In this document: positions 908 through 64,000 of the stretch, piece by piece
How the letters are laid out: the number at the start of each line of letters is the position of its first letter
Numbering within the stretch: position 1 is the stretch's first letter
Assembly: GCF_964355755.1 (NCBI RefSeq)
Contig: NC_092673.1
Location: 18,473,648-18,537,647 of the forward strand
DNA: 64,000 nt
Origin: Antedon mediterranea
Lineage: Eukaryota; Animalia; Echinodermata
Reading direction: 5' to 3'
The notes under the pieces: generated by a model
Database searches by the model: none
What the model was told of the DNA's origin: nothing
The model's input: only the letters and a program-made list of their open reading frames with translations
Program-made: the position numbers and the translations under genes

Positions 908-3900
908 ACGAAAGTGGGCCAAAAGAAAGGAAAGGAAGAAAAACGGATCAAGGTAATTGATTGAAATATGTTGGAAAATAAGAGAGAGAAAATAAAACAA
1001 ATTGAATATTTACAGCATCTCAAACTGGTTTTGGTCAGAATTGGGGGAAACAATAATGATATATATCTCTTGGTATCTTTATTTTATTTTATTCCAATCC
1101 AAAAAAGCTGAATTGGAGATTTTTTCCAAAGGCTAAATTTTTACAAATTATAAATTTCACATACTTTTTCAAATAAATATTATAAATTTTAAACAGTTTA
1201 AGAATTACACATAAAACAAGAAGAAAAAAAAACATTTAAAGTCATTATTATTTAAGAATTAAGCAGACAAGTGAGATATAGAAGAAGCGGTCATTTATTA
1301 TATCTGGATAATGAGACACCAAATTGTCCATATGCATTTTATCATATTTTAACTTTTAATCGCTTTTTAAAGATTTTGTGCAATAATGTATGTGTTCTAT
1401 ATTTTAATTTTTTGTTTATATTATATATTATATATATCGGTTTTTTATCGTACTAATATTTGCCAATCTTTAAGAAGAATTTCTATTGTTATGTTATTAT
1501 GATAATGGACAAATGAAGCTTTTCAATATTTCATTAATTTTTCATTTGCAGGAAATACAATGGCAGATTCTGAAACTTTGAACAGTTTCCAAGACCTAAA
1601 AGGTGGTCTCAGTGGGTACTTTGATGGTGAAAGATACCATTGGCTGAGGTTCCTACTATTTGATCAATTGGATGTCGGGGACCTTACAAATAAAGATTTC
1701 AATGGACATGACTTACTCAATACACTTGAAGACAAAGGTTTCATCTCACCAACCAATGTTAACTTGCTGTTAGAGATTACAAATACATCTGAAATCCAAC
1801 AGGCCAAAGATCTTGTATCAAAGTATATGAGAGACAACAACATTCAGGATAGACATACTGGTAAAGCTAAGTTGTCACCTTACAGAAAGCGACTGTTTAA
1901 GGCCCTGAAACAAGTTGACCGAGATGCATTACGTAATGTTACTGCTTACTATGACTTGACAAAATATAACTTCTCCAATGTATGGGATGCAGTTCTCTAT
2001 CTGGAGAATGATAAACAATTAGTAGATGATTTTGACAAAATACAGAGGTTTGCAGAACGTCTTGGTGGAATAGCAAGCAACACACTACTTGGTAATGGTA
2101 TTTAAAGACCCCTTCCCTGCAATTTTGGACGTTTTTTGGAAAATAATACATATATATCACTTTAAAAACATTAAACCATGTCATTCCTTGTCTTAAATGT
2201 ACGTTTTATGGTAAATTATGATAAAAAGTGAGAAACAATGCACTACCTAAGTAGCTCGCGGCGATCGAACTCTCGTGGACGGTCTCAGGCCTAGCCTAGC
2301 TAGGCTTAGTTTTGTAGGCCTAGCTGGTAAACATCGGTAACGTACGAACATCGTACGCTAGCTATATACCTAGCCTGACGTTGTATAGTTGCTGCATTAA
2401 TTGTCTTTCTATTTTTGCCAGACTCCGTTGATACAAATTGGGGAACACCCGGTATTTTCGCTGAAAAGTTAGGAGTCTTCCATTTGTTTTGGCTTCACGA
2501 TCGATCGAAAAGTGGGCGAATTACAGGTGAAAAACAAAAATATCAATCCGCGCGCAATGCATTTTGGGATTTATAGCGGGCCGCTATAATTATTAAAATC
2601 GATTTATTTTTCACATTTTTAACCGTTTAAAGACGAAAAAAGTTATCGCAATAGGACCATATAGTATTATTTTTACATTAAATATAGTTTGTGATCTTAA
2701 ATTAGATCTAAAAAACGTAGGGAATGGGGCTTTAATATTCTTACAAAACTATTCCAAAGTTAATTGTAATGTAACTATTCATATCTTTCATTTGTTTTAA
2801 AATTTTACATGATTTAATTTCAATCATTGTTTATATACTATACAAGTTGATAATGTATTGATTATTTTATTTATTAACTGATTATGTAATAGTGGGAAGA
2901 ATGAGACTGATGAATATGACAAGATAGTGATAATAAAGACATTGCAATACTAATATAGGATAATGTCATAAACACAAAAATATGAAGAATTTGGAATTTT
3001 GTAATTTGGAAAACTGATTATAGATATAGAAAATGTAACTCAAAATTGTGTTTGAAAATTGTAAATACTGGACTAACTAACAACAACAACCCCCCCCCCC
3101 CCCCACCTTTGGCTGGCTGACCCTCCCCTGGGGGTAATCTATAAGAAATTTAGAAAAATGAAGCTGCTAGGTCTCTGGAAATTGCACTTATACATTGATA
3201 TGATACAAAATTACCATGGTTGGGGGTGAGCTAAGATAAGAAAATTTTGAAAATTAGAGCTGTTAGGTCTCCGGAAACTCTATGGTTGGGTCTGAGCTAA
3301 GACAATTTTGAAAACTAGAGCTGCAGGTCTACAAAAATTACAATCATACATTGAAAATGGTGGAGGGAAAATTTGAAAATATGAAAAATTCATATTATTA
3401 AATTATCTGTTTTAAAAACAAATTCACTGAAATAAATGTAAATGTTTGTGTATAATAAATGATAAATAATTTATTGCCATCTGTCACAATTTAAATCCCC
3501 ATGTTATTAAAATAATACTAATGACAATGGCAGTAAAATAAGAAATAATTGATTATACTTACTTGGATAAAACATGCAAAATTGTATTATTTCACAAGAT
3601 TCCAAAAAAAACCCTACTTTTTTCACAGATGTGCAAGATGGTTCAGTGACCTCTGCATTACCACAGTCTGATATCCAAGGCAGTCAACAAGGTAGGATCC
3701 ACTGGTTAATTCCAGAGGTTAATCATCTAAGTGGTTACATTTTAAAATAAAACTTAATAGACATATTATAATATAACTGTAGCACATTTTGAGTTATTCA
3801 AACTGTATACATTTTAGATGAAAATGTATAGTTATGTTACTCTCCAAAATGAACATAAAATGTATAGTTATGTTACTCTCCAAAATGAACATAAAATGTA

Positions 3901-8215: not shown

Positions 8216-8417
8216 GATGTTTGATAGTAATATAATGATACTGATGATAATAATGTTGTTTGATAGTAATATAATGATACTGATGATAATAATGTTGTTT
8301 GATAGTAATATAATGATACTGATGATAATAATGTTGTTTGATAGTAATATAATGATACTGATGATAATAATGTTGTTTGATGGTAATATAATGATACTGA
8401 TGATAATAATGTTGTTA
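8216..8417. repeat. Minisatellite, 39-bp unit, ~5 copies
   Basis: ATGTTGTTTGATAGTAATATAATGATACTGATGATAATA in tandem. Confidence 0.95.
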
Positions 8418-8549
8418 TTTGTTTTGTATTAATAACTACAGTAGTTATGATTAATGATGCTAAATTGTATTTTAAATCAAGAAATCATGTAATAATTAGA
8501 CTCATAACAATCTAAATGTATTGTGACCAAGACAATAATATTTTCCACT

Positions 8550-9375: not shown

Positions 9376-9406
9376 TACAAAAAATGACCAAATTGATAAT
9401 GATAAC

Positions 9407-24549: not shown

Positions 24550-25428
24550 CATGGTTGTAATGCCTGCAAGCCATTCAGCTTCTACAACTCTGTCATGGTT
24601 GTATGCCTACAAACCATTCAGCTTCTGCAATTATGTCATGGTTATATGCCTACAAACCATTCAACTTCTGCAACTATGTCATGATTGTAATGCCTGCAAA
24701 CCATTCAACTTCTGCAACTATGTCATGGTTGTATGCCTGCAAACCATTCAGCTTCTGCAACTATGTATGTCATGGTTGTATGCCTACACACCATTCAGCT
24801 TCTGCAACTATGTCATGGTTGTATGCCTAAAAACCATTCAGCTTCTGCAACTATGTCATGGTTGTAATGCCTGCAAGCCATTCAGCTTCTACAACTATGT
24901 CATGGTTGTAATGCCTGCAAGCCAATCAGCTTCTGCAACTATGTCATGGTTTTATGCTTATAAACCATTCAGCTTCTGCAACTATGTCATGGTTGTATGC
25001 CTACAAACCATTCAGCTTCTGCAACTATTTCATGGTTGTATGCCTACAAACCATTCAGCTTCTTCAACTATGTAATGGTTGTATGCCTACAAACCATTCA
25101 GCTTCTTCAACTATTTCATGGTTGTATGCCTACAAACCATTCAGCTTCTTCAACTATTTCATGGTTGTATGCCTACAAACCATTCAGCTTCTGCAACTAT
25201 GTCATGGTTGTATGCCTACAAACCATTCAGCTTCTGCAACTATTTCATGGTTGTATGCCTACAAACCATTCAGCTTCTTCAACTATTTCATGGTTGTATG
25301 CCTACAAACCATTCAACTTCTGCAACTATTTCATGGTTGTATGCCTACAAACCATTCAGCTTCTGCAACTATTTCATGGTTGTATGCCTACAAACCATTC
25401 AGCTTCTGCAACTATGTCATGATTGTAA
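24550..25428. repeat. Minisatellite, 43-bp unit, ~20 copies
   Basis: CATGGTTGTATGCCTACAAACCATTCAGCTTCTGCAACTATGT in tandem; explains five overlapping ORFs. Confidence 0.95.
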
Positions 25429-25909
25429 TAGTTGTGAAGGTTATTGGTATGTAGGTTTCTTCTTCAGCAGGCCTACTTGTTGGCTCTTGTGAGTTGGTCT
25501 CAATAGAATCGCCCATTTGTCTAAAATAATGCTTATTACTGCCTGGAAACACACAGATGTGCGGCAAACTCAACTTTGTCAAATCGATTGATCGATGATA
25601 GTGATTACAATTTTTTAGTGTAAGAGGCCAATTGCGTCCTTAATGTTCCACTGAAAAATATCCGGAAATGCTATTTCTGCTGGGTTAGGAAAGAACATTT
25701 TCTGAAAAACAATAATAGCGACTACACAACGATCAGATGTTACTGAGCGTATGCAGAGTTTTTTTTTTACTCAATAGTTGCTAATGTTTAAGCAACAAAA
25801 ATAATAAATATTGTATATCAAAATATTTTTAAATTTTTTAAATCATTTGAATCAACATTTTTCTAATAAGAATAAAACTACATGATTCAAATAGTAAACA
25901 GGGAGTGCG

Positions 25910-36199: not shown

Positions 36200-37615
36200 A
36201 ATGTTGCACCACTTGCGCGGCGGATAACCAAACTCGTCAAAGTGACGAGTTACATGTCTAGTTCTTTATTTCTCTCTGTACAGATTTTGTGTAACAATTA
36301 TCTCAAAAAGTTGAATGTTGAAGATGACAAAATTTTCACAATATCTTTCAAATACTGTAACTTAGTCCTAATAAGCTTTTCAGCGTGATCACTCATCCGT
36401 GACGTCATTTATACGCCATTTTGTGAAATCACATTATCAATCATATCGCCATAACTCTTTATCACATATCAATAAAATTCACTATACGTAAACTTCAGGT
36501 AAAAGGTAAATATATTAACCAATAAAAGGCACGCGCACGTAGGGTCATACGCGTGAAATCGCGCGTTAAAAATTAAAAAAGCTCAAAATTAAGTTTTGAT
36601 CAATTTAGAGCATGAATTAGGCTATTTGCGTGTTTCAAAAAATTACTGCGCAAAAATGCGTTTTTGCGCGCGCAATTCTTAAAAAAGGTAAAAATACGTA
36701 TTTTTTTGTAAAAATCGCATTCTACTCACCATTCTTAGTACATTCACCAAATTTGAGTCCGTTCCGACTTAAAATAACGCTATACGAGCATGTTAAAAAT
36801 GACAAAATGCGCACATCAATTTCACAAAAGTTCTGAAAATTGTGAAAAATATGTCTTTTTAAAATGAAAATAACTCTTCAGAATGCACGATGACCCCTAA
36901 GTTTTTTAACTTATTCGGGAAGCCATTGAGTTTTAGATATAAATGTATATACACATTAGACGTAAAAAATGGTATTACGTCATGAAATGGCCACTTGAAT
37001 ATAAAAATTAAGATTTTTTTCCGTTTTGTGTAGGTTATCACATTCAATAGAGCGCATCTCCGCTATTTGAGCTCGATTTTCGCACAAATTTCAGTGTGTG
37101 CTTGCTTAATTATTTATCTTTATCATAAGTTGTCAGTGTTTTCATTTTGATGACGTCATCACACGTAAAAACTTGAATAACGTAGGTCGTGTAATTTCAC
37201 CTTCGCCGTAAGTTTGAATATCTTACAGCTCTTCAGAATTGAAGGTTACCTTGATGATTATAATTTATTCTGAAAGCTGATGAAATTTATTTGCTCAATT
37301 CATTATCTTTCGAAATTGTCATCTTCGAGTATATTTTGATAATTCCATCATACCAAAAAATTAGAACATGTGTGTCCCGTAATTTCACCTATGCTACACT
37401 GTATATAGATATACAGTATATACTGTACATATTGTATATGGCATATAATAGGCACAACTCAGCACTATAAGCGTATGCATCATGTCATAGGATGGCGTAC
37501 ATCAACTTTTTACGATCATATGTTAACGTACGTGCATGTTTAAAAGTGTTAATTTCATTAAAATGATAAAAATGATCACCTATAATTCGTCAAAGTGACG
37601 AATTAAATTCTAGTT
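36200..37615 (+). mobile_element. Helentron/HINE-like non-autonomous element (left boundary approximate)
   Basis: Hairpin TCGTCAAAGTGACGA followed by TCTAGTT occurs at both ~36233-36262 and ~37587-37615. Confidence 0.5.
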
Positions 37616-37779
37616 GTTTTTATCATTGTTTAGAAACCTCTCAATCCTCGACCATACTCAAATTAAAGAAAGAAAGAGAAAATAATAAAGATACTTTGAC
37701 AGATTTATTACTGAGCATCGTGATTGTTGTTATCTGCCTGACTTATCCAGTACACCTGTTAACATTTCGAAACTTGACA

Positions 37780-40700
37780 ATGTCAAGCACACAGAGTTCG
37801 ACTAGAAGTAGCCAATTAGAGATATCAGCAGCAGAAGCAAGAGCTGAATTGGCGGTTGCTAAGGCGAGAGCTCAATATAATAAGAAAACCTTACAGAAAA
37901 GATTAGAACTTGAACAAATAGAAGAAGAGGGTAAATTAGCCGTAGCACAAGCCCGCTCAGATGCCTTGGACAAAGAGCTAGAACGATTGTCCATTACGGC
38001 TGAGGATACACCTCAGGTACCAAATACTGATGCGGTCGATAAGGTTAGTCAATACCTCGACTCATTAGACGAAAACGAAGCGGTACAGCCTGTCTTAGAA
38101 CCAGTACCACCTACACTATCACCTAATGCAACACCATGGTTTCCAAGGGCAAACCCAACTACAGATCAGACCACAGTTACACCTAAACCTGAAATAAGCT
38201 CTGCACCTTACCCGATTACACCTACTCCAGCCGTTGAACAGACCAATAATATACTACTACAAAATTTGATTGAAAAACAGGGAGAAGTACTGTCCCAATG
38301 GTTGATACAAACAAGTCTACCTAAAATGGGACTTACAAAATTCGACGGCAACCCAATGGATTATGGACGATTTAAGAGAGCCTTTGAGCACGAGGTGGAA
38401 GGCAAGGTTCGCAGCGAGAGAGACAAACTGTACTACTTAGAACAATATACAACTGGTGAGGTGAATAATCTGGTCAAGAGCTATTTAGCTATGGATCCTG
38501 GAGAAGGCTTTAGACAAGCGAAGCAGGCGCTAATAGATAAATACGGTAATCCATTCAGATTGGCGGATGCCTATATTACATCATTAAAGGACTTTCCTGA
38601 GATAAAGGCAGAGGATAAAGATTCTTTGTCCAGATACTCATTACTACTTATCGAATGTAAGAACTCCATGTCCAGTCTCGATCATTTACAAGAATTAAAT
38701 CATACAAGTAGCATACAGACACTCACGTTGAAACTGCCTTACCGCATGAGAGACAAATGGAGGACCAAAACAGACCAAGAAACCAGAAGGGTACAATTTG
38801 ACGACTTTGTACTATTCGTAGAAAAACAGTCCAGGATTCTTAGTAATCCTACGTTTGGGAACATTAAAGACGAAAAGGTATCTCAGCGCAAACCACCACA
38901 TAGACCAAAGGGAGCTTATGCTGCAGTCGAAGTACAAAGAGACTGTCTTTACTGCAGTAAAGGCGCACACAGAATAGAAGAATGCAGGAAATTCGACAAC
39001 CTGCAAAGACCAGAGAAACTAACCTACATTAAAGAACACAGATTATGCTACGGCTGCTTAACTACTGGTCACTTGGCTAAACATTGCAACAGTCGCCACA
39101 CGTGCACCAAATGTAAGAGGAGGCACCCAACCACGCTCCACCAAGACCCAGTTGTCAACACTGAAACGACAAACAAGAATAACGATAAGCAGCCTAACCA
39201 ACTGCAAGCTGCGTGTGCCAAGATAAATCAAGGAGAATGTGCCTTGGCAGTGATCCCAGTTCGCGTAAGCGTTGGATGCTCACACCAAGTAGAAACATAC
39301 GCCTTTCTAGATCCAGGGAGCACCATTTCGTTTTGCTCAGAGGCACTCGTAAAACAACTTGGCGTTGGTTGAAGGAATGAATGTATCACCATTGACACGA
39401 TGGGGTCTACGTACCGATTAACAACAAAGGCGGTAAAGGGACTAAAGGTAACTTCCCTAGACAACAGAAATATGGAAACTGTTATACACACTGCATATAC
39501 TAAGAGCAACTTACCTATTCAGAAGGCACACTTTCCTAAACAATCGGACATCGACAAGTGGCCACATTTACAAGGCGTACAAATACCCCAGATAGATAAG
39601 GGTAAAGAAGTGGGTCTACTGATAGGCATGGGTGTAGCAAGTGCTTATACACCTCTGGAAGTAAAAACAGGACCTATTGACGCTCCCCATGCAACCAGAA
39701 CTAACCTGGGGTGGATCGTTTGGAACTTGATTGGTAACCACAAAAGTAGTCACCCATACCCAGCAAACTTCGTTGGAAGAAATGTAGAAAAGTCTACTTA
39801 CAACACGTTGGAGAAGTTAGTAAAAAGGAGCACCGAGATTGACTTCCCAGAAAGTGGTTTGGATCTTACACAAAACCATTCTGTTGAAGATAAATTATTC
39901 CTCAGGAAAGTAAACGAAAGCATAGTGAAGGGACCCGACAATCACTTTACAATTAGCCTTCCCTTTAGACGCAATGAAGTGGTCATGCCTGACAACAGAC
40001 TACAAGCAGTCAAACGACTAGAGTCATTATGTCGTCGTCTGAAGGCAGATAAACCATATGCAATGGAATACACCAACTACATGGATGAATTGTTAACCAA
40101 GGGGGATATGCAGAGAGAGTACCACCTGACGAAATTATACAAGATGGACACAAATGGTATATCCCTCACCATGGCGTTTACAATCCCCAGAAACCTGGGA
40201 AATTAAGAGTGGTTTTCGACTGTGGAGCAAGATATCAGGGAGTAGCTCTTAATGATGTTTTTTTACCCGGACCAAACCTGACTAGCAACCTATTGGGGGT
40301 ACTCCGTTTCAGGGAAGAAGAAGTTGCCATAATTGCTGATGTGGAAAAGATGTTCCACCAAGTCAAAGTACCGGAAAGTGATAGAAACTTCCTCAGATTT
40401 CTATGGTTCCCAAATGGAAACATTTATGCTACTCCCATAGAATATAGAATGATCGTGCACCTATTCGGATCAACCTCGTCACCCTCATGTGCAAATAAGG
40501 CACTACAACAGACAGCAGCCGACTGTTCTATTTCAGAAATCCAAGAAAACACCAAGAAAACATTGTTACGTAACTTCTACGTAGATGATCTGTTAAAGAG
40601 TGTTGAGAATCCGGAGACAGGAGTGGAACTTATTAAGCAGCTGAGAATACTATGCCAAGATGGAGGATTTCGTTTGACAAAATGGACCAGCAATTCAAAG

Positions 40701-43119
40701 AAAGTAATAAACACTATACCAGAATCTGAACGGTCAAAGGAACTTCAGTCAATTAATCTACATGAAGAAACCATACCATGTGAAAGAGCATTAGGCATTA
40801 AATGGCATCCAGAAGAAGATTATTTATATTTCGAAGCTCCAACCAGAGAGCAAGCTGTCACAAGGAGAGGAATCTTATCTACAATAAGTTCTGTTTTTGA
40901 CCCAATGGGCTTAATAGCACCAGTTATCCTACCGACGAAGATATTACTTCAAGAAGTAATGCGAGATAACAAAGGCTGGGATGAACCCATTGACGGGGAA
41001 ATAAAACAACGCTGGCAGACCTGGTTGGAAGAATTAAAACTTATTTCTAACATCAAGATACCAAGATGCGTTAACTTGAATTGTGCAAACAGACCATGTC
41101 AACTCCATATGTTCGCAGACGCTAGTAAAAGGGGCTACGGAATAGTCGCCTACGTACGATGTGTAGTAGATGGAGCCATTACCTGCAACAATCTGTATAG
41201 CCGTTCAAGAGTTTCACCACTCAAGCGAATGACAATACCACGACTTGAGCTTACAGCAGCGACATTGGCGGTTAAGAGTGCAAGCTTAATCCAATCTGAA
41301 ATAGATTACAACCTTGACGATATCCTTTTCTGGACTGATAGCATGTTGGTGATGAACTATATTAACAATGTGAGTACAAGATTCAGTACCTTTGTTGCTA
41401 ATCGACTAAATGTCATACAAGAAGGATCTACTACGAGTCAATGGAGACATGTTGGTACTAAAGATAACCCTGCTGACATTGACTCAAGAGGACTGAAACT
41501 AGGAAAAATCGAAAATGAGAAAATGTGGTTACGAGGGCCGGAATTCCTCTGGCAGGAAACAAACCAGTGGCCTCAACAAATTCAAGGTAGCCATAATTTG
41601 AAGATAGATGATCCTGAAGTCAAGAAGGTTGCATGCCCAGTCTTGCCTTATGCTGATACATTAGAAACCTTGGCGAAACACTATTCATCTTGGAGTCGCC
41701 TACGTAGAGCCACCGCCTGGATGATAAAGTTAAAACAGGTTCTTCGCAAGAAGGATGTAGACAGAAAATATCTGACGGTATCCGAACTAAAAGCAGCTGA
41801 AGTGTCTCTCGTAAGAAATGTTCAAAGAAGGAGTTACATAGAAGATATTAAATCATTGGAAGCTGGTAATCAAATCAAGAAATCAAGTCCATTAGTAAAA
41901 CTTGATCCATTTTTGGAAAATGGCGTCCTAAAGGTAGGAGGTCGCTTTAGAAGGGCAGAGTTGGGTTCGTCTAAACACCAAATGATCCTGCCTAAGAACT
42001 CTCATGTTTCCCAGTTTATAATACGAGAGATGCACAGAAATCTTGGCCATTGTGGCAGAAACCAAATCATAACGCACCTGAGGAAAGAATACTGGATACC
42101 TCAAGTGGTCTCTGCTACCAGGAAATTAATCAGCAAATGCGTACTATGTAGAAGGTACCACAGAAGAGCGGAAAACCAGAAAATGGCCGAGTTGTAGAGT
42201 AACTGTTGGTGAAAACCCATTCTCGCATACTGGAATGGATTACTTTGGACCCTTCAATATAAAAAGGGGAAGAACTATACATAAGAGATGGAGTAATATT
42301 TACCTGTTTGAAAACTAGAGCAATTCACTTGGAAGTATTTCACTCATTGACGACCACTAGTTGCCTCAATGCTCTTCGACGTTTTACCGCAAGGAGAGGC
42401 CCAATACGCATGATTAATCTCAGACAATGGAACAAACCTCATTGGTGCCAAGAATGAGCTGAAAAGGCAATTAAGGAGCTCGACCCAAGGGAAATCCAAA
42501 GTAATATGCTTCGACAAAATATAGACTGGAAATTTAATCCGCCTTCCGCTTCACACTACGGTGGCACATGGGAGAGAATGATTCGTTCTGTTCGGAAGGT
42601 CTTATATAGTGTTCTGAAGGAGCAACCAATGGAGCTAGATGACGAAGGACTTCCAACAGTATTTTGTGAAGTTGAAGGAATTGTCAATAGCAGACCGTTG
42701 ACGATTATATCAGACAGTCCATAATAGATAAAGATCCGTTAACACCTAACCACTTTCTTGTGGGAAACAAGCAAACATCAATGGAACCAGGCGTGTTCGA
42801 AAGAAAGGAACTAGTAAAGGGATGGAGACAAATTCAGTATTTAACAAATCTCTTCTGGAGACGTTGGTCCAAGGAATATTTGGTAACACTTCAGGAACGA
42901 CAGAGATGGTTTCACCAGAGAAAAAATGTGAATGTAGGAGAAATCGTGTTGATATGCGACAACAACTCACCAAGAGGACAATGGCCAATGGGCAGAGTGG
43001 TGGAGGTATACCCTGATGAGAAAGGTTATGTTAGAGCAGTGAAGCTCAAGACAAGCACATCTGAACTGAAGAGACCAATTACTAAGTTGGTGGTGTTGTT
43101 AGAAGCAGATTCTCCATAA
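37780..43119 (+). pseudogene. BEL/Pao gag-pol polyprotein with stops and frameshifts
   Basis: KFDGNP, CYGCLTTGH..C, FLDPGS protease motif, ADVEKMF, FYVDD, FADAS, HCG/CVLC, FNPPSASHYGGTWERMI; in-frame TGA at 39370 and further lesions near 40105, 42197-42500 and 42722. Confidence 0.93.
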
Positions 43120-47994: not shown

Positions 47995-50900
47995 GGCCAA
48001 ATAAAAAAAATTACTTGTTAAGCGTCACACCCTCATAAATTTTCAGGGGAGAGGGGGAGGTTTTTTTTTAATTTTTTTTTATACTTTTTATGGAGATATA
48101 TTTTTGCGCGATCACCGCCTTTTTAGCATTTCTGCTAGTACAACATATATAAATGAACAAGTACATCATTTTAAACCTTCAGAAACACATTTATTGATCA
48201 TTGATAGTACAATATACACAGATATTTGAAGTTTTTTTTAAAATATTGCAAGTTTGTTTTTGGTAAGATGATTGTAAAGCAGCAGCAAAGTGTGGTATTA
48301 TTTACAGTATGTATTGTAAGGTACTGTTTAATATACAGTAGTAGAACATCAATGCTGACAGACTAAAATGTGATTCCTTATTTTCTATGTTTACTTAAAT
48401 TTTCTTCCTCTCCTATGCACCTTCTTACATCTCTGCTCATTACAACCTGAACACTGTGGGTAGTATTCATCCACTAGTTGCAACTCATCTAGTGTTCCGC
48501 AGTGGATGCAGACATCTTCATAACCTGCCGAATAAAAAGTGAACTCGATTAAAGTATTACATGTTAAGTTTTCTCTAACATACACTTTTTTAAGTGGATC
48601 GTCATCTGGCATTTCAATAGTTGTCAGGGTTGCCCCACAACTATAGAGTGCTGTCTCCATTAACAATTCCAGTGCTTGTCTTGTCTTTTTTGTCAACTTC
48701 TTCTTTGCATACAGACACCTCCACTTTTCGCATTCCTCGCACTGTATGATCACGCCAGCATTCTTAGCCGTTTGGGCTGATGGATTGAAAGGGCATCCAT
48801 GTCCTGTGGCTCTAGTAACTGTAAAAGAAGGCCTGTAATGTTCTGTAGTTTTCTGTGAAAAAAATAAATATATACATCATCATTCTGTGGTAGTATCATC
48901 ACTTCACCTTTAAATTAGCTTTACAATTGCTTTGATAAATTCTCCATGTTCTCTTTCAGATATTAGCCTGAAACCAAATACTCATAAAAGCAATGAACAC
49001 AAAGTTTACCTTTCCATAAAGTTCCTCAAATGAGTAATATTTGTCTCCATCAGGCATAGGGTCTGGAAGATGGTGAACTTCACTGAAGACCTTGATTGGA
49101 AGTCTGGGAGGCTTACATACACCACACTCTGGCGAGGTACACTTCAATATCGAGAACATGTAGTTTCGAATTTGGCAATGGTTATCTATAAACTGCTTTA
49201 GCTGCTCTTGGTTCTTTAGATGCTGTTGGGTTTTAACTTCTGGAGTCAAAGAGTCATCAACCTTTAAAAGAAATTTAAAAAGTCAATATAGATACCTGTA
49301 GTTGAAACAATTAAATAACAGAATATCATATAGAGACAAGAGTATAATTTATTTGAAAAATTTACAATTTACCTGTAAAACATTACTCCATAAGTCAGCC
49401 ATTTCATCAATATCAGCAGGACCAAAAGTTTTAAAGCCCTGATCCTTTAATTTGAGACGCTCCATAACATTTCTCAGTAACTCGATGCAGGGCTGCACTG
49501 ACTCTAGTACCTCTTCTTTGAGTTCCGGGATAGTTTTAGCCATTTCCCGAGTATCTTTTAGGCCTCCACACTTAGTTAACTTGTCCTCATGTGTTATAGC
49601 TTTCTCCCTCATCACACCAACACCCTGTAGTCCAACATTAATTATTGACATTATGCGCTCAACTGGGTTTTTCCAACTGCGTTTTGGGGGTGTTCTCACA
49701 GCACAGAGGAAGTCAAGGTCTAAGTTAACAAACATGGCAATCAGTGATAACTGAACAGAAAGATATGTAACTCTATGGTCTGGACCTCCATCTGTATAGG
49801 CCAAAAGCATCGGCTTGTTCAAGTTCAAGTTGGTCATCTCCTGTCTAAGTTCAGTCATGTGCCGTATAGGTGAAGATGGCTGGAAGCAGTTCTCCTTAAA
49901 TGAAATGCAAACTTGACCTACATGAAACGAGTCATCGATATGGTCAGGAACGTCAATAAACAGATTAACACTTGGTGTTAGACTCAGCCGTGTGAAGTCA
50001 TGGTCTGCCACAACAAACTTCTTCCCCATGGCTACAAGAACTTGTTTGCCACGCTCAACAGCTGCCACTGGACAACCTGGCTCACCCACCTTGATAGTAT
50101 GCTTGTCATCCATGCTGACAAATACTAGATGCTCTTTGAACCGGATACTGAATTTCTTCTGGTAACGAAAAAGTGCTGAAGCATAATGGGAGTCTACATG
50201 ATGAGCTCGAAATTGCCTTGCCTGAACCATAAACTTGATCTTTAACTTTCCAGTGAAACGAGCAGCAGCCTTAGCAGTTGGTCTGCGTGGCCAAAACTGT
50301 AACCTCAACCATTGAAGACTTGGTATTTTGGTGCCCTCATCACATCGCTCTATCACTTGATCGTAGAGGTCTCTAACACTAACAGCTGTTGCTAAGTGTG
50401 TGATTACCTCGTTTTCTGACACTTGATCATGACGTCTGTCGTCAACAGCTGTCTCAATACCTGCGTTGATAGTTTCCCGACATTTATTCAGGAAAGTGTC
50501 ATACTCTAATGGCCGTCCAGGGTTACAGTGTCGTCTGTCCCAAAGCAATTCGGGGTCTTGCTCATCAAGGACTTGTTCTAAGCGTCGATCAACTTCAGCT
50601 TCATCTAAAGTTTCAGACGAAGAACAGTCACCTAAATTTTAAAAAAATTGAAATTGTGTAGAATAAGTTAAAGAGCTTTTGGGTCTGTAAAGGTCACTAA
50701 GAAATAATCAAAACTGAGGAGACCAGACTGACAAATAGTTGGAAAATAAATAGAAACAAACCTGTCAAACTTCGGTAAGCACTCCGCAAAACTGCCTTGT
50801 TAGCAACAAGTCCAAATGACTGCACAAATTCTCGCTTCATTGATCTGGAGTGGTATTTTGGTACTGTTGCCCGTACATGTTTACACACATCATGAGCACG

Positions 50901-52962
50901 GTTAATTACATCATCAGAGCTCATTATTTCGTCAATCTTGCATGCAAAATACAAAGTTTGGGATCCACTGCTTTCTGAGATCAGCAAACATCTCATTGGT
51001 AGCTTCAAATCTGAAAAGAATCTATATCTTTTCTTTCTGTCTACTGGAGAGTAATCATTCAGAAATAGACAATCCCAACATTCCCTTTCCATCAACTCTT
51101 GAACTATATATTTATATTCTTCAATTTCTGTTTCTGTCTTTTCCATGATATTTATGGTTTCACTCTCTTTCACAACCATCATTGATTGGTTATCTTTCAC
51201 CTGGAGATTAAATTAGATGTGTTAACATACAAAAAGGGAAATGACATACAATTTATAACCTATTGGAAAGTTAATGGTTGTATAGATTGTTTGCATAAAA
51301 GTAGAGAAAAATAGTATATACAATTCTTGACTTAAATGAAGAAAGTGATTTCACTTGCCAAACTTGGAAGGTATCACAAAAATGTGACTTGTTCATTTTT
51401 AAAGCTGCAGGCCATATGAGAAGGCACCAAATGGCAATGGCCATGGTTTAACAAATGTCATCAGTATTGAAAAGTATACAGCATACAATCAATATACATG
51501 ACCATGAATATGCTAAAAACACTTACCTTCCTAGCTATATACTATAGGCAGTTAGTTGCTCATTAAAAATGAAAGAAAACTCACCCTTTTTGTCTGTGAC
51601 TTCATGTAGTCAGCATATTTCAACAAAGCTTCAGAAAGTGTGCCAATAGCGTCAGAAATATGTCTCCAACATTCCTTCTTTAGAAAGGGCATAGACATAA
51701 GATTATAGAGTGCTGACGTGTGTTGTCTTAAGGCATTCTCGGAAAGGAACGATTCATCTATTTTCCTTTTTTTTGCCTCCACATCTTTCTTAAAATTGAC
51801 AAAAGTTGAGAACATTTCCGGTATTTTGCAACCTCGTTGATTTAAAGAGTCATGATTTTTGTCAATGTGCCACAATGCCTCGGCTAAAGTATTGATGAAT
51901 GTCCACGCACTCGCCTGGTTTTCTTGCGACCATCCCAGGCCCTCCTTTTCTATCCAATCCATGATTGCATTTTTTAACTTTGATAAGCCTGGATATCTTC
52001 TTGTCATCAGCCTTTGTGGAACGCTAACGGCTCCTCTTTCATCCATCATCATAGTGAAGGCATTTTTGCTTTGTGGTTTATTAAGTTCCATCTCTTTGGC
52101 AGGTACTGTGAATTGGATAAAATTTCCTAACGTTTCCACGACATCTTGCACCAAAACGGGACTCTCGCGTGAACACATGACCTCCGTCATTTGTGTCTTC
52201 GATTTCCCAACCGAAACCAAAAAAAAAAATTGCTGTTGATCATCATCAATATTAAATTTATGAAAAAGATCGATCAAACTCAGGTTTTCAAGAACTTTCG
52301 TACCACACCAATCCTTTATTGGACTGTTCCTACCTGTTTGAACAATTTGCAATACGATAAACTTGTGTTTAGGAGGCCCACTCTTGGCTTCGTCCCCCAT
52401 CATGATGCAGAAACACAAAATGAATAAGTAATTAGATACGCGCGCTGCGCTGTCATTAAACCGCCCCCCCCCCCCACAGCAGCTAGCTCAGGCGCTAGCG
52501 CCACATGCGCGCCTAGGAGAGAAAAGATAAACAACAAACATTTTGAAATCGCTGGGAGCGTGCTTTATTCTGGTTCCCGGTCGTCGCGAGCGGGCTAATT
52601 TGTGCCACTGAGTTGTTCGCGTTTCGCAGTAGAATATTAAATAAACAAGAGAAGAGAAGTATATCATTTATTCAAAACATTTAATATCGCAAATACAATT
52701 TATTAATTGTTGGTACCGCTACCGTTGATATATTTGTTTGCACTTTAAAACACGATCGAATTGGCTGCAGCAGGGAATCAGGGTAAAAAACGTCTCATGG
52801 GACGAAACGTCTCATGAGACGAAACATCCCTCTGGGGCTGGGCCGGGCCGCCAAACTTTTCGTCGTATATATATGGTGAAAAAAAATTTAAAAAATAAGA
52901 GAGGCGGCTGGATAATCAGGAGCGGGCGGTGACGCTTAACAAGTATGTTTTTTTATTTGGCC
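47995..52962 (-). mobile_element. Zator-type DNA transposon, full length (~4.97 kb)
   Basis: TIR GGCCAAATAAAAAAA...TACTTGTTAAGCGTCAC at both ends, GG termini, 3-bp TSD TAA (47992-47994, 52963-52965); encodes a spliced DDE transposase. Confidence 0.85.
48391..52403 (-). CDS. Zator-type DDE transposase, 5 exons, one apparent 1-bp frameshift
   Basis: Exons 52403-51585, 51200-50762, 50631-49373, 49261-49010 and 48852-48391 with GT-AG introns; motifs SMDDKHTIKVGEPG, DHDF, YTDGGPDH, SWKNPVERIMS; Cys-rich C-terminus (CEEC, CIHC, CSGC); frame break at ~50580 (CGC TAG AAC for R-[VL]-E-Q). Confidence 0.85.
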
Positions 52963-56172: not shown

Positions 56173-59100
56173 ATGAGGTATTGAAAAAGATATACAGTAC
56201 AGTATTTTTATAATATTTATCGATTGACAAGAGCCATATAATGTATTTCCCCAGTCTTAACATATTAACTACCTATTTATCCATCCATTTATAAAAAATT
56301 ACACAAAATGTGGCCAACACAATTGTTTGTCTTTATGAATTGAAACAAATGGCATTGAAGATTGATGAAAAGGACATACTGTATTGTGTCTAATAAATTC
56401 CCCCTCCCTAATAAATGTCCCCTCTGAGATTTTTTTTCAATATTGTAATGAGTGCTCATGTATCCAGTTCATAGAAACCTTGCGCCCTTAAATTATTAAG
56501 GGCAAATATTAAATTTGATATGCTACGATAAATTACACCGACCATGAATTAAATTGTCAGACAGTTACACCTTGTGTATGTATGATGGTGGTAAAAACCA
56601 ATGTTCTGAAAATATTGCAGGGATAATGTCTATTGATATTACAGCAGTGATAAACGTGTGCATGGACCAGTGCGATAGAATATTGAATTATTGCTGTTGA
56701 AAAAAGGAGGCAGGCTAGAGATAACTTGCACATTACCTTTTTCCTCAACAAATAAAGAACTTATTACATGCTTTAAAGCAGTTTGTTAGTTATTGGGTGT
56801 TAAAATTTACCTCTTATAAATGACCCCCTTTTTGGAAAAATTAAACACAATACAGTACATTTCATTTTAAACATTGGTCAATGTTGTATTTAACTTTAAT
56901 CATTTCAGTTCACTAAAGGATCGTCTTGTAAGAAATGTCATTCGAAGGGCATTTCGTGGTAAGAAAAGAATGTTATTATCAGTTTTTGGAAAGATGCTTG
57001 CAAATGATGAATATCAACTTACAACAATATTTTGTAAGCCGGCAGATAGAAAGGTTAATTACTATTTGTTGTTAAACTGTATTTGAATAATGTAGTTTTT
57101 ATTTACTTACAGCTGTTTATAGATATAATAACTGTTCAATACAGTAGTTGCTTTTTTCCCAATTTCTTCAATAAAGGATATTTGTTACTGAGTTGATCTT
57201 GTATTTGATTGATAATCATGTTAGCTTAGAGCAAACACTGAATTAAATTGGCATAATGCTTCTCTTATTTTTATCAATTTTAAAATGGTGCAGTATGAAA
57301 AGGGCACGATCAAGTGGAAAAAATGCATTGTGAAAAACCCATTCAAACTTCAGACCAGAGTATTCACAGGCACTAAATTTAAAATTAATATTGAAGACAG
57401 AAAATAGTATATTTGCTAAAACTTTTAGCATCATGGTTCTAAAGTTTGCTTCTGTTACAGTTAAAAATTTGTAGTAATTGTGTACTGTACATAATTAAAT
57501 ATTAAACCAGGTCATTCCTTGTGTTAAATGTACGTTTTATGGTAAATTAGGATAAAAAAAAAAGAGAAACAATGCATTACAGTAGGCGGAGATTTGTACT
57601 CTCTGAGTACCCTCTTCCATTTGTTTTTGGCCCACGATCGATCGAAAAGTGGGTAAATTACAGAAGATAAAAAATATCAGTCCGCGCTCAATGCATGTTG
57701 GGATTTATAGCGGGCCACTTAAATTATTAGAATCAACTTATTATTTAACCATATAGTATTTATTTTTACATTAAATGTAGTTTGTGACCATAAATTAGAT
57801 CTAAAAAAATGTAGGGAATGGGACTTTAATTACACTGTCAAGATGTAAACATGACCAATAAATAACTATTATTTAAAATACGTTGTTTGTACAGTATTAC
57901 ATGTATATTTCAGAATATAGAACAAGATCATATACAAAATGGTGAGCAGATGTTAATACCACCTATAAAAATACTCTGTCTGTATAAGGACATGGAAATT
58001 ACTGTTGAAGTATTAGACCAGCAATGGAAAATCCAGGAAGGATCTAAAATATCACGGGTAAAAACATTTGTTGAATAAAAATGTATTACTGTACACACTA
58101 TTTAATATTAAATTATACAAATTATAGACATTATATAATGCTGTGGTAGGTTGAAATGGTGATGAATATAATTATATTAAAACTCCATTGCTATCCAAAG
58201 CATACTATAAACACAGTGTATATTATTTTATTTGACGATTTTGTATCACAATGCTGTGTATTATTTTTTTAATGTAAATGAATTAGCTTTTCGTAAACAT
58301 TTTGAGAATTTTGTTGAAGAATACTGCGCATTGTAGTAGGCTATGTGCCATCTATAACTACTCATCGAACAAAATCCAAGCGCCATCTTCGATATTTGGT
58401 TCAAGATAGAAATAGTGGATTAGTTGAATAAAAGAACTGTAGAACATTAGGTGTGTTATAAAACAAATAATGTTGTTGAGGATGCACACTTTTATTTGCA
58501 GTATAGCCATTTTTCTATTTCTCATTGAGACAAAAAACTCTTTGAGTTGAATGAAAGCATTACCAGTATAAACAAAAATTATTTGAAAAAATGTATTCAC
58601 CAAAGCAATCAATTTAACTACAGTGCCTTTCAGCTGTAACTTTTTATCTGAGTATGGCTTCTCTTTTTTTCCTAGATTGTCATTGCTGAATACCTATGGC
58701 GTGGAACATCATTAAAGAAATTTTTTTTAAAAAGAGGTAATTCATCAGCAAATGTCCTAAAGGCAACAGTATTACTGTCACAAATGTCAAATGATATTGA
58801 TCCTGTGGAAGTGTATTGTAAGTATTTAAAATGCAACAATAAGTCTAAATTTAGAATGATGATTGTAATAAATAAAATGTAGTATTTAAATACGGTAATA
58901 AGACATTAACCATCCATGACAATAACTAGCTAACCATTGTTAGAGTATGGGGTGGAAACAATGTAGGTGTTGGCTTGGTTTTTATCTAGCACTACAATAC
59001 ACTTTGGTTACGTTGCTAGTTCCTAAAACACCTTAATTCCTCCACATATCAAGCAGATGATTCTAATTATTTCGAATGTCGGTTGGATGTTTTTTTTCTC

Positions 59101-62100
59101 ATTCTCACAGATTTCCTCATTTAAATTTTTTTTTTGTATTATTTAATTTCCAGAATAATAATCAAGTTTTTCTATACATCTATATCTGGTTTCTTTTTTT
59201 ATTGAAATAATGGTTATATGTTTTATTTGTTATAGGCAATTTTGAGACATCAAGGTATCATCTAGGTATGCCATCCCTCCTCTTAATTTAAACGATTTGC
59301 CTGCTTATCTCCCAGCCCCTGGGCCACCACCTTTAATATATGCTGGTCAGGTCCTAAAAGCCCTTTGTAATCTTAAGCCTAACAAAGCTGGCCATCCAGA
59401 TGAACCTCCTATTAAACTATATAGAGATTTTGCTCCTGAACTTGCTGAACCTGTTGCGGATATCTTCAATCATGCATTGAAGGATGGTGTTTTTCCCGAC
59501 CTTTGAAAAAGGGCTACTGCAGTTCCCATTCCTAAAACTGTGAATGCTAGTTCTGTCTCTGACCTTAGACCTATTTCCCTTACCTATGTTCTTGCCAGGG
59601 TATTTGAATCTTTTATTGTTAAGTGGATTCTTGAAGATATTAAGGGTAAATTAGATTCTCGTCAATTTGGTAGTAGGAAAAAGGCTTCCTCAACTCAATG
59701 TTATTATTATAAAGTTGATTGAACTGGGTGTGAGGTCGTCCATAATTCCCATCGTCTGCAGCTTTCTCACTTCCCGTTCTCTCAACACCAAGTTTGCTGG
59801 GATTTTGTCATCTTCAAAGTCACTGACTTGTGGTGTCCCACAGGGGACATTGCTTGGCCCTGTACTTTTCCTAGTACTTATTAACGATGCTTGTGTTGAT
59901 TGCTGCAGACGATGGAAATATGTGGATGACCTCACCCTTGGGGAGGTCGTTCGCAAAGGTGATTTGCCTTCCATGCAATCCCTGTTAGATGATCTGAGTG
60001 TTTGGTGTTCATCCAATAATATGATACCCAAACCCTCCAAATGCCATATCTTGGTTGTCAATTTTCTTAAGGACAAGTCGGATGATATTATATCGCCTTC
60101 TTTTAGTCTGAGTGGTTCCATTTTACAAGTAGTTGATCACATGACGCTTCTTGGTGTAATCATTCAAAATGACCTGAAATGGGAACTTAACACTAATAAT
60201 ATTGTGTCTAGAGCTTCTAGACGTTTATTTTCCTTGTGCATTTTGAAGAAAGCAGAAATCTTAATTAATGATCTGTTGACTGTTTATATGGCGTATATAA
60301 GACCTATTTTAGAATATGCTGCCCCTGTTTGGCATGGCGCTATCACTAAGGACATGTCCAAGTCTATTGAAAAGGTACAAACGAGAGCATTGCGTATCAT
60401 GCTAGGTAACAACTATTTGTGCTATGATCATGCATTGTCTGTTACTGGTTTACCTACTCTTGTTGAGAGAAGAAACAAACTTGTGTTGTCTTTCGGGGAA
60501 GGCTTATTAAAATCCGAGCTGTTTAAAGAAATACTTCCCCCTCTTCATAAGCCAGCTCGGTCTCTCAGAGTCAACCGCTTTCTAGAAGTACCTCTTTGTA
60601 AAACCAGCAGACTTAGGTCGTCTCCAGTTCCCACCATGGTGGATATAATTAATAGGCACCACTAGCTTTTTTTTATAGATGTAATAAGTGAATGTTTTAA
60701 GGTTTTTTATTCATGTATGTTTTTAATTGTATGGTACGATATCTAATTTTATTAAGATGTTTCTATTTTTATAGCAATTTTAACTAATTTTTAGTCATTT
60801 GTAATACATTTCATTTCAGTCCTTGACTGTCGTTTTGTAATATATTTTTATATACCGAATAAATAAAAAAAAAATGTTGTAATGTTAATTATGGTAATGA
60901 TGTAGGTTAAGTACGTTTTCACTTGACCAGAGAAATGGCATGAGCCAATACGTCTGAGGCAGATACAGTAATAGATGAAGCGGCTGTCATAAGGGTCAGC
61001 CCCTGTGTTGATTTCAAATGCATGATGGAACCCCAGCTTCATATATACAGCTATGATATTCCTAGATGGTCTCCCATCCAAGCTCCAACCAGGTCCAACA
61101 TTGCTTAACTTCGGTGATCAGACAAGAAAACCAGTGTTTCAATGTGACAAGCCCATATTATATTATATGTAGTAAACAAACAAAAACAGACTACAATTTT
61201 TAGAATTTAATTAATACAATATAGGTTATATTCCGGCCAATGTGAAAAGTTTTATGGTAAGTTCCGGCAAAGTTGCAGGCATCTATAACTACACTTTGCC
61301 AGCATGCCTATAAGAAAAGGACTCTTAAACCATGATACTTTATAGCAAATATATTTACTGTAATTTTTAGCTAATTTGTTTCATCTCATGCCTGTACAGG
61401 TGTTCCTTCCAGTACAGGTGTTTCTTCTGGTATTGGTGTGTCTTCTGGTACAGGTGTGTCTTCAGGTGTAGGTGTGTCTTCAAGTGCAGGTGTGTCTTCT
61501 GGAGCAGGTATGTCTTCAGGTGCAGGTGTGTCTTCAGGTGCAGGTGTGTCTTCCAGGGGTGGCGCCAGGATCTTCCCGACGCGGGGGCTACATTCTCCGA
61601 CGAGGGGGCTATGCGAGCGAAGCGAGCATCACTAGGCTGGAGGCCAGGGGGCCGCCAAGGGCCCCCGGTGGGGGTGCAGGGGGCTAAGCCCCCGGAAGCA
61701 ACTCGTTCTAGCGTCATTTGAGGTCATTTTAATCAGATTTAGGGTAGCAATTTTTTCCATTTTTTATAATGCATAAATAAAATACTGCGTGCAAAAAAAC
61801 GATGCGCGATGACTGTTTCAATCCATATTTTTCAATTTAGAAAATAAAAGTTCAAAGAAAATTTAGAAAAATAGAGTTGGAGGTCCCGGAAATTGGACTT
61901 ATTATACTTCAAAACATGAAACAAAATATATAAGTCCCTATCATGGTTGTGACTGAGCTAAGAAATGTTTGAAAAATAGAGATGTTAGGTCCCGGAAAAT
62001 GCACTTCTTGTACTTCGAAATATGACCAGCTTTATTGTTGGGGCTGAGCTAAGAAAATCTTTAAAACTAGAGCTGCAAGTCTTCAAAAAATTGCATTTTA

Positions 62101-64000
62101 TACTTTGGAAACATCAGGCCTAGAGGCTTAAAAAAACGCAAGTAGACCTTTTTCAGTCGGGGAAATAAGTTTATTCCTCCCAAGTGTATGCGTGCGTACC
62201 ATCTGGACTTCCGAGTGGTGAGAAATTCATGACATAGGCCTACAGGTCATTGAAAATGTAATAACTTAGCTATAGTAAGATGTTTGCTAAGCGAAAATGG
62301 CACGTTTTTTTTGTTTAGTAATGGATGAAAAATTTATTTTAGGTGCCCCACGGTACAGAAGGTTACTTGTAAATTAAAAAATTGGTGAACATACGAACAA
62401 TTAACTTAATTCGTTTTTGCTGTAGTGTAGCGTACGTCGACACAGTACACGACGTAACCGTCGGTAAACTTCGCCTGGAAAATAACTACAGTACACATTT
62501 TGGTCCCTGGATGGAACATGATATCACGCGTCTCGACCCAACGTTGAACGATTCGTACAAAGGGATACTGCCAGACAAGTGCGTACCTAGCTATTGTTTA
62601 GTAGTAAGTTAGATCGCTGGCAATAATGAATGCATATCGAGTGCATAATATCACTCTGACGTACTCTCACGGTCAATGAAACGTCGCGGTTTTGTAGGCG
62701 CTGAAGCTAGCTACGAAGTGAACGCGAACGCTTTTTACTGTATATTATATTCCCCGACAAAAAGTACCCGTGTTCCCTTCGGTAACCGTCGGTAAACTTC
62801 GCCTGGAAAATAACTACATTACACATTTTGGTCCCTGGATGGAACTTGATATTACGCGTCTCGACCCAACGTTGAACGATTCGTACAAAGGAATACCGCC
62901 AGACAAGTGCGTACCTAGCTAATGTTTAGTAGTAAGTTAGATCGCTGGCAATAATGAATGCATAAAAGTGCATAATAGCCCTCTGACGTACTCTCACGGT
63001 CAATGGAACGTCGTGGTTTTCTAGGCGCTGAAGCTGTATGAAGTGAACGCGAACGTTTTTTACTGTATATTATATTCCCCGACAAAAAGTACCCGTGTTC
63101 CCCGACGCGGGGGCTAGGCTCCCCGACGAGGGGGCTAGAGCCCCCGTAGCCCCCCCGCTGGCGCCACCACTGGTGTCTTCTAGTACAGGTGCATGCAACC
63201 AAGGTATTAGGCAAGGTTAATACTCTTTAGTAGTACATATATAAATATATATAATAAATTTAGGTTTTTTTAATACAGATACAATGCAACATTTTCACCG
63301 GAAATGTTTTGAATATGTGACCTACTATTCCCTACTATTCTACTCACAGACTAGAATCGTCATGGTCAATAAAAACAATAACATCGTTGTATTGTCACGA
63401 TATTATTGCTCTTACTGACCATAACGTCATTTGATTGCACATGTGAAAATATTATTTTCATCAAAGGCAGCATATGTGGTTATCCTATAGTTCTAGTATT
63501 AAAACTTTTTAGATTTTCTTTGTTTTATGTATAAAAAATGCACATTTACCTAATTATCGTCGATTGTTATCGTCCTAGTGTAAATGGGCCTTTATTTCGA
63601 GTTTAGGGTGATAGAAGATTTTTTTTTATCATTGTCAGTGCTGTCATAGTTTTGCACAATATATATTTTAAATCAAACTCATTTTGATTTGAATCAGTGA
63701 AAATAATCATTGTCCAAATAATGGCCAGTAATTTTATTTGCAGATTCTAAAACCTACAACAATTTCCGAATTCTAAAAGCTAGTCTTGGTAAATGCTTTG
63801 TCGGTGAAAGATACCGTTGGATAAGGTTCCTACTATTTGATAAGTTGGATGTCAGTGAAATTACAAATATAGATTTCAATGGATATGACTTACTCAATCA
63901 CCTTGAACACAAAGGTTTAATCTCACCAACTAATGTTAACTTGCTGTTAGAGATTACAAATACATCTGAAATCCAACAGGCCAAAGATCTTGTATCAAAG
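56173..64000 (+). CDS. Gene 2 (spliced, 3'-incomplete): UPA-like domain, Gly/Ser linker and DED; paralog of gene 1
   Basis: Phase-compatible exons (ATG AG 56173-56177), 56909-57053, 57914-58057, 58676-58817, 59236-59265, 61400-(MITE)-63203/63215 and 63744-end; start codon uncertain. Confidence 0.7.
56909..58817 (+). CDS. Three exons encoding an UNC5-type UPA-like beta-sandwich domain
   Basis: KRMLLSVFG..EYQLTTIFC..GEQMLIPP..ITVEVLDQQWK..IVIAEYLWRG..FFLKR..LKATVLLSQ aligns by eye with UNC5 UPA motifs recalled as KRLQLAVFA, EYSLRVYC, GGYLVEEP, EIPFYHIWSG, FTLER, CKICVRQ. Confidence 0.72.
57500..57829. mobile_element. Partial copy of the Kolobok-like MITE found at 2106-2731
   Basis: Shared GTCATTCCTTGT..TAAATGTACGTTTTATGG, CACGATCGATCGAAAAGTGGG and the end GTAGGGAATGGGACT|TTAA. 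Confidence 0.75.
59270..60874 (+). mobile_element. 5'-truncated, inactivated LINE (CR1/L2-group RT) in an intron of gene 2
   Basis: DLRPISLT, QFGSR, GVPQGTLLGPVLF, YVDD, LLGV, RPILEYA; in-frame TGA at 59504; internal deletion near 59697 removes the DxxKAFD motif; A-rich tail at 60858-60874. Confidence 0.9.
60900..61155 (-). mobile_element. 5S rRNA-derived SINE (SINE3-like) or 5S pseudogene with a 3' extension
   Basis: Minus strand TCTGATCACCGAAGTTAAGCAATGTTGGACCTGGTTGGAGCTTGGATGGGAGACCATCTAGGAATA matches the 5S rRNA A-box/IE/C-box region with substitutions; followed by a non-5S body. Confidence 0.75.
61400..61553 (+). repeat. Coding 18-bp tandem repeat (GVSSGA)n, a linker exon of gene 2
   Basis: GVPSST GVSSGI GVSSGT GVSSGV GVSSSA GVSSGA GMSSGA...; the frame resumes after the MITE at 63181 (SSTGACNQG). 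Confidence 0.75.
61554..63172. mobile_element. Non-autonomous hAT element inserted into an exon of gene 2
   Basis: 15-bp TIR CAGGGGTGGCGCCAG / CTGGCGCCACCACTG; 8-bp TSD GTGTCTTC (61546-61553, 63173-63180); internal ~328-bp tandem duplication at 62454-63102. Confidence 0.9.
63744..64000 (+). CDS. Gene 2 DED exon (runs off the window), paralog of 1552-2091
   Basis: ttgcag|AT acceptor; DSKTYNNFRILKASLGKCFVGERYRWIRFLLFDKLDVSEITNIDFNGYDLLNHLEHKGLISPTNVNLLLEITNTSEIQQAKDLVSK, open to the window end. Confidence 0.85.

What the first reader, a model, noticed from the sequence alone, without database searches (positions are those of the whole stretch)
63744..64000. DED paralogs differ almost only at amino-acid-changing sites, with a charge shift, then become identical
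A by-hand codon comparison of 63744-64000 with 1567-1823 (86 codons) gives 22 amino-acid-changing codons, all within the first 59, and only 3 purely synonymous codon differences. The last 27 residues are identical and the last ~65 nt are identical. Many changes remove acid or add base (E>K, Q>R, D>I, G>K, D>V, H>R, Q>K, D>H). Inference: diversifying selection on the DED interaction surface (partner specificity or pathogen antagonism), with gene conversion or constraint on the distal part.
Basis: partly seen in the sequence, partly recalled or inferred. Interest (0 to 1): 0.75.

Follow-up and report, generated by a model that had tools for sequence, protein, structure and literature searches.

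The report
Feather-star death-domain paralogs, near-neutral drift
Two copies of a feather-star exon predicted to encode a caspase-8-like cell-death module differ at about the amino-acid-changing rate expected without selection (dN/dS near 1), so the apparent sign of an immune arms race is likely a counting effect in a large, recombining gene family.

Summary
The counts are right: 22 amino-acid-changing and 3 silent codons, and a 69-nt identical end. The inference from them does not hold. Corrected for available sites, dN/dS is 0.86 (Nei-Gojobori) or 1.09 (ML; about 0.45-2.9; p=0.85 against 1). A site model finds a fast class, but only through three triple-change codons (p=0.001 with them, 0.37 without). 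16 of gene 2's 22 residues also occur among 13 Antedon mediterranea paralogs, and both net charges (-7, +1) lie at the ends of the paralog range. The identical tail is conserved across the family, with a modest conversion signal. Both exons encode a tandem DED predicted to fold like the caspase-8 prodomain. Gene 1 is the open tail of a likely Roc-COR-tDED-membrane gene. Gene 2 is UPA-like + linker + tDED, and its linker exon is split by a 1,619-bp hAT-like element, which in-frame splicing could bypass. The scan had already noted this tDED/Roc-COR family elsewhere in this genome.

The parts
63744..64000 (+). Gene 2: 5' part of the tandem-DED exon (DED1 helices 1-6), phase-1 acceptor; runs off the window end
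   Evidence: Pfam DED E=3e-5, below the curated cut-off; 86% identical to 1563-1823; AG acceptor
63932..64000 (+). 69 nt identical to 1755-1823 (helices 5-6 of DED1); a family-wide conserved stretch, possibly also converted
1552..2091 (+). Gene 1: 540-nt phase 1-1 exon carrying both DEDs
   Evidence: AlphaFold2 pLDDT 92.6; caspase-8 tDED TM 0.69-0.74, Z 14.9, rmsd 3.0-3.4 over 159-161 residues
908..6239 (+). Gene 1, 3' part: 8 exons, open to a stop, encoding linker, tDED, acidic linker and a hydrophobic membrane-hairpin-like tail; matches the end of the Roc-COR-tDED protein P0003
   Evidence: 0 internal stops, AG/GT at all internal junctions; tblastn 85-100% per exon to P0003; P0003 has Roc and COR-A
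56909..58817 (+). Gene 2: three open exons (56909-57053, 57914-58057, 58676-58817) of a UPA-like beta domain
   Evidence: 45-73% identical to the part of P0016 that follows its ZU5 domain; in frame; the name UPA is inferred from position after ZU5, no Pfam hit
56831..56908 (+). Relic of the ZU5 end, out of frame with the UPA-like exon
   Evidence: weak collinear tblastn hit to P0016 200-212, E=0.04; frames; no hit to the rest of ZU5 in the window
61400..63203 (+). Gene 2: Gly/Ser linker exon built of 18-nt units, split by a transposon
   Evidence: the 18-nt array resumes after a 1645-nt step; the two flanks sum to 177 nt, phase 1-1
61554..63172 (.). 1,619-bp non-autonomous hAT-like DNA transposon with 8-bp target duplication and 15-16-nt terminal inverted repeats; puts a stop in the reading frame after 26 codons
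   Evidence: its end has several hundred times the summed contig depth of the flank in run X1; hAT assignment from the 8-bp duplication is recalled knowledge

Best explanation
The two stretches are paralogous copies of one exon predicted to encode a caspase-8-like tandem death-effector module; their differences fit near-neutral divergence (dN/dS about 1) and likely reflect ordinary birth-and-death evolution in a large feather-star family. Shown: the counts, dN/dS, shared residues, exon frames and the transposon. Inferred mechanism: the in-frame exon was duplicated and attached to many sensor scaffolds (Roc-COR, NACHT-LRR, ZU5-UPA, kinase, caspase). Purifying selection holds the helical core and the FL motif, which would pack against DED2. 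Exposed positions on helices 1, 3 and 4 drift. Exchange between tandem copies homogenises patches such as the helix 5-6 tail. Gene 1 would tether its tDED to a membrane behind a ROCO GTPase and nucleate DED filaments that recruit a caspase. Gene 2 is likely damaged or shortened by the transposon, which would relax selection on it further.
For: dN/dS 0.86 by NG86; ML 1.09 (F3x4), 1.25 (equal frequencies), 1.20 (first 59 codons), p=0.85, 0.61, 0.71 against 1. Paralog-pool variants 30 N: 10 S, ratio 0.86-1.15. 16 of 22 gene-2 residues are shared with at least 1 of 13 paralogs; 6 are private. Invariant columns are 55 of 174 against 29-37 in neutral simulations, while columns with 4 or more states are 30 against 24-34: constraint without excess hypervariability. 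The site-model signal vanishes without 3 triple-change codons, the artefact described in 10.1101/165969 (abstract). Tail residues 59-85 match in 24-27 of 27 for 9 of 13 paralogs. Transposon in a coding exon.
Against: An average dN/dS near 1 with a constrained core implies that some sites run above 1; values of 0.4 or less are rejected and the interval reaches about 2.9. Differences cluster in codons (p=0.01). Sites 4, 16 and 52 vary repeatedly across paralogs. 16 of 31 positions on helices 1, 3 and 4 differ against 2 of 29 on helices 2, 5 and 6 (post hoc, confounded with the tail). The transposon need not kill gene 2: an in-frame donor after 61507, or skipping the exon, gives an open frame. 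Only two DNA sequences could be modelled.
Confidence: 0.65

Rival explanations
1. A few exposed DED1 sites (such as 4, 9, 16, 37, 52) are under diversifying selection, which would set which paralogs co-polymerise or evade pathogen DED mimics; the gene-wide dN/dS near 1 is an average of a fixed core and selected surface.
For: M2a vs M1a p=0.001; excess invariant columns with mean omega near 1; changes on helices 1, 3, 4, which form type I and III surfaces (PMC7156525 passages); charge changes 8 up, 1 down.
Against: The M2a fit is degenerate (omega at the bound of 149, distance 3.1) and p=0.37 without three codons; no excess of hypervariable columns; surface sites also drift fastest without positive selection.
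Confidence: 0.25
2. Gene 2 is a pseudogene and neutral decay on its branch alone lifts the pairwise dN/dS to 1.
For: Transposon with an in-frame stop; out-of-frame ZU5 relic; private changes at mostly conserved positions such as D19V and G13S; flat codon-position profile.
Against: All UPA-like exons and the DED exon are open with canonical splice sites; only 6 of 22 changes are private; the FL motif and core are intact; the paralog pool shows the same N:S ratio with gene 1 as reference. This can add to the best explanation but does not replace it.
Confidence: 0.1

Closest known systems
Caspase-8 / cFLIP / MC159 tandem DED
   Same: Predicted fold (TM 0.69-0.74, Z 14.9); FL-type motif in DED1 helix 2, invariant in the family
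   Different: 18-20% identity; no RxDL arginine in DED1; here C-terminal to Roc-COR or UPA-like domains and encoded by one phase 1-1 exon
Invertebrate death-fold domain shuffling and lineage-specific expansions (amphioxus and sea urchin DED-NACHT, PMC2575513 passages; marine DED/TRADD-N expansions, PMC8195603 passages)
   Same: A DED module joined to many sensor or effector scaffolds in an expanded family; seen here with NACHT, LRR, Roc-COR, ZU5, kinase, caspase, TPR, NHL
   Different: The passages read do not describe this crinoid tandem-DED exon family or its Roc-COR fusions; no TRADD-N was tested here
DAPK1-type ROCO proteins (Roc-COR-death domain) and UNC5/PIDD-type ZU5-UPA-death domain proteins (recalled)
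   Same: GTPase or ZU5-UPA scaffold followed by a death-fold domain
   Different: Tandem DED in place of a death domain; gene 1 ends in a membrane-like tail; gene 2 lacks an intact ZU5 in this window

Membership tests
Tandem DED (caspase-8 type) | Two six-helix death folds in tandem | tested here: met
   Gene 1 model pLDDT 92.6; best matches caspase-8, cFLIP, vFLIP tDEDs over 152-169 residues. Gene 2's second DED lies beyond the window.
Tandem DED (caspase-8 type) | Pfam DED above curated cut-off | tested here: inconclusive
   21.7 and 24.6 bits against 35.9; E 2.5e-4 and 3e-5
Tandem DED (caspase-8 type) | FL hydrophobic motif in helix 2 | tested here: met
   F28-L29 in both copies and all 13 paralogs; FADD F25 maps there by the 6-7 residue offset
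Tandem DED (caspase-8 type) | RxDL motif (PMC7156525 passage) | tested here: not met
   No arginine in residues 59-85 of DED1 in either copy; the motif is not universal, caspase-8 DED2 has Asn168 there (PMC6233201 passage)
Tandem DED (caspase-8 type) | Filament formation and caspase recruitment | not testable with these tools
   needs experiment
Positively selected gene pair | dN/dS significantly above 1 | tested here: not met
   0.86-1.25, p at least 0.6
Positively selected gene pair | Site class with omega above 1 robust to multi-nucleotide changes | tested here: inconclusive
   p=0.001 with and 0.37 without three triple-change codons; two sequences only
Gene conversion tract | Local identity beyond constraint, with a switch of phylogenetic affinity | tested here: inconclusive
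   27/27 tail against at most 26/27 in 9 equally distant paralogs; affinity switch 14:5 to 0:3, p=0.036; synonymous contrast p=0.24
ROCO protein (gene 1) | Roc-COR in the same gene | not testable with these tools
   Upstream exons lie outside the window and no genome is held; inferred from P0003
hAT-like non-autonomous transposon | Short terminal inverted repeats and 8-bp target duplication | tested here: met
   no transposase partner was sought
Pseudogene (gene 2) | No open spliced product or no transcription | tested here: inconclusive
   Stop if the element is retained; open if bypassed; no usable RNA data

The most novel reading that the evidence does not exclude
Crinoid tandem-DED paralogs carry a selected surface code: the outward helix 1/3/4 faces diversify while the FL face and helices 5-6 are kept uniform by constraint and conversion, so dozens of immune sensors sharing one shuffled exon form paralog-specific death filaments or outrun pathogen DED decoys.
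Probability: 0.2. Interest if true: 0.55.

Novelty: new member of a known kind. Interest (0 to 1): 0.22.

Why it matters
As it stands this is a caution: codon counts such as 22:3 look like selection but match neutral expectation once sites are counted. The family is a usable system for asking how many death-fold paralogs in one cell avoid cross-talk. If the surface-code reading held, it would show natural specificity tuning in DED filaments, of which mammals have only a handful. This pair alone does not show that.

Tried and rejected
No whole genome is held, so paralog DNA and the rest of gene 2 could not be read. No RNA holder was listed; run X9 (RNA guessed) showed only paralog-like DED pieces with 18-23 differences among those listed, which says nothing on expression. 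The first AlphaFold2 run on 15 sequences failed (pLDDT 48). A profile search of alignment A3 against PDB sequences found nothing. The ESM Atlas search of the UPA-like part gave only generic beta-sandwich matches. Candidate exons at 56065, 56621 and 59237 had no homolog support and were dropped. Whether alleles without the transposon exist was not tested; both read-laying runs went to other questions. Two exon-boundary tries for gene 1 were off by one and were corrected. No complex prediction was run. A sequence look-up in earlier findings and a look-up near this place returned nothing. Dropped rows: P0014 (two distant copies) and P0015 (no first DED) were left out of the 13-paralog counts.

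Full report
Observation. The two stretches align without gaps. In 85 whole codons there are 36 base differences in 25 codons: 22 change the residue, 3 are silent; the last 27 residues and 69 nt are identical.

The ratio is not unusual. About four in five sites are nonsynonymous, and eight codons carry two or three differences, which hides silent changes. Nei-Gojobori gives 27.5/200.7 against 8.5/54.3, dN/dS 0.86, Fisher p=0.83. A maximum-likelihood codon model gives 1.09 (profile interval about 0.45-2.9; p=0.85 against 1), 1.25 with equal codon frequencies and 1.20 for the first 59 codons. Differences fall 12/11/13 on the three codon positions. A second sample agrees: contigs of run X1 laid on gene 1's exon gave 261 variant rows, of which the tool showed the 40 best supported; scored singly, 30 are nonsynonymous and 10 synonymous, a site-corrected ratio of 0.86-1.15. 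That sample is biased towards common variants.

Site-level signal. Differences cluster in codons (p=0.01) and a two-sequence M2a model beats M1a (p=0.001), but the fit is degenerate and p=0.37 once the three triple-change codons (D9I, G16K, T52H) are removed. The abstract of 10.1101/165969 reports that such codons supply most false support in branch-site tests. Across 14 proteins, 55 of 174 columns are invariant against 37 +/- 4 and 29 +/- 4 in neutral simulations bracketing the observed identity, while columns with four or more residues number 30 against 24 and 34. So a core is constrained and there is no excess of hypervariable columns. A constrained core with a mean near 1 does leave room for some sites above 1; the data cannot settle that.

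What the genes are. The closest proteins are from the feather star Antedon mediterranea: 15 hits in two searches, 14 of them on contigs of one length, 36.19 Mb. A wider search found 76 clusters; all 10 looked up are crinoid. In the 41 scanned, the module is joined to NACHT-LRR, Roc-COR, ZU5, kinase, caspase, TPR, NHL and other domains. With a 44-sequence alignment AlphaFold2 models gene 1's exon at pLDDT 92.6, and its best matches are caspase-8, cFLIP and vFLIP tandem DEDs. Gene 1 (908-6239) has eight open exons ending in a hydrophobic hairpin-like tail and matches the end of P0003, a Roc-COR-tDED protein. Gene 2 has three open exons homologous to the part of P0016 after its ZU5 domain, then a Gly/Ser linker exon, then the DED exon.

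Gene 2 is hit by a transposon. A 1,619-bp element (61554-63172) with an 8-bp target duplication and terminal inverted repeats splits the linker exon and puts a stop in frame. Its end is highly repeated in all four runs laid.

Charge shift. Net charge of residues 1-85 is -7 in gene 1 and +1 in gene 2; the 13 paralogs span -7 to +1. The pair sits at the two ends of an existing range. Sixteen of gene 2's 22 residues occur in at least one paralog, four of them (Y4, I9, G15, K16) only in P0011, its nearest relative; six are private (S13, V19, I42, Y47, H52, H55). Most differences therefore separate subclades and are spread over both lineages.

Identical tail. Residues 59-85 match at 24-27 of 27 in 9 of 13 paralogs, and none of the 40 top variants of run X1 falls in 1755-1847 (short collapsed contigs may hide some). 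Constraint explains much of it. Conversion is suggested: gene 2's front half groups with P0011 (14 sites to 5) and its tail with gene 1 (0 to 3; p=0.036), and none of 9 equally distant paralogs reaches 27 of 27. The silent-site contrast alone is weak (p=0.24).

Where the changes sit. Using the model's helices, 16 of 31 positions on helices 1, 3 and 4 differ, 2 of 10 on helix 2 and 0 of 19 on helices 5 and 6 (post hoc). Only 2 of 22 changed sites are core-like, against 20 of 63 unchanged (p=0.048). In tandem DEDs the DED1 FL motif fills a pocket on DED2 and the DED1 pocket is free to bind the next molecule (PMC3477315 passages); type I contacts use helices 1 and 4, type III helix 3 (PMC7156525 passages). 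By the offset, FADD's type IIIa and IIa residues (PMC11074299 passages) fall at or beside changed sites 37, 38 and 55, and its F25 on the invariant FL motif. That helix 5 packs against DED2 is recalled, not checked.

Comparison with what is known. DED modules shuffled onto immune sensors are described for amphioxus and sea urchin (PMC2575513 passages), and expansions of DED-bearing proteins for marine invertebrates including echinoderms (PMC8195603 passages). Four searches (listings only) showed no title or abstract start on this crinoid family; most subscription papers and supplements were not covered. Earlier scan notes already describe Roc-COR-tDED genes elsewhere in this genome; these are unreviewed and I tested only the domain layout.

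Verdict. A real observation with an ordinary cause: two members of an expanded tandem-DED exon family, diverging at close to the neutral rate on exposed sites, partly homogenised, one copy damaged by a transposon. Selection at a few surface sites stays open at about one in four. Interest 0.22.

Noticed in passing
window 9361-14499 (-) and 37576-43116 (+): Two Pao/BEL-type LTR retrotransposons (DUF1759, Peptidase_A17, integrase domains), each broken into several frames
   Followed up: partly
window 17018-18934 (-) and about 59256-60875 (+): Two non-LTR reverse transcriptase elements; the first has a 639-codon open frame, the second lies in a gene 2 intron
   Followed up: partly
window 48394-52487 (-): Five open frames of 108-429 codons with no clear Pfam family (one weak zf-CW hit); looks like a spliced DNA-transposon gene
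   Followed up: no
window 61042-61160 (-): Full-length diverged 5S rRNA copy (40.7 bits) in a gene 2 intron; pseudogene or 5S-derived SINE
   Followed up: partly
window 63358-63594: A second high-copy short element with fold-back joints in the intron before gene 2's DED exon
   Followed up: no
window 63660-63840: Runs X1 and X4 (one sample) hold one contig identical to the window and one with 10 differences and 3 gaps, each at low depth: two alleles or a very close paralog
   Followed up: no
window 1998-2057: Second DED, residues 144-163: very variable positions alternate with invariant ones across paralogs; a better candidate for selection than the stretch in the finding
   Followed up: partly
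window 63730-63750 vs 1540-1570: Gene 2's acceptor lies 15 nt further into the exon than gene 1's, at a repeated GCAG; paralogs differ in this start too
   Followed up: no
window 1-859, 6695-7312, 8218-9380, 24550-25429: Tandem repeat arrays with units of about 60-90 nt
   Followed up: no
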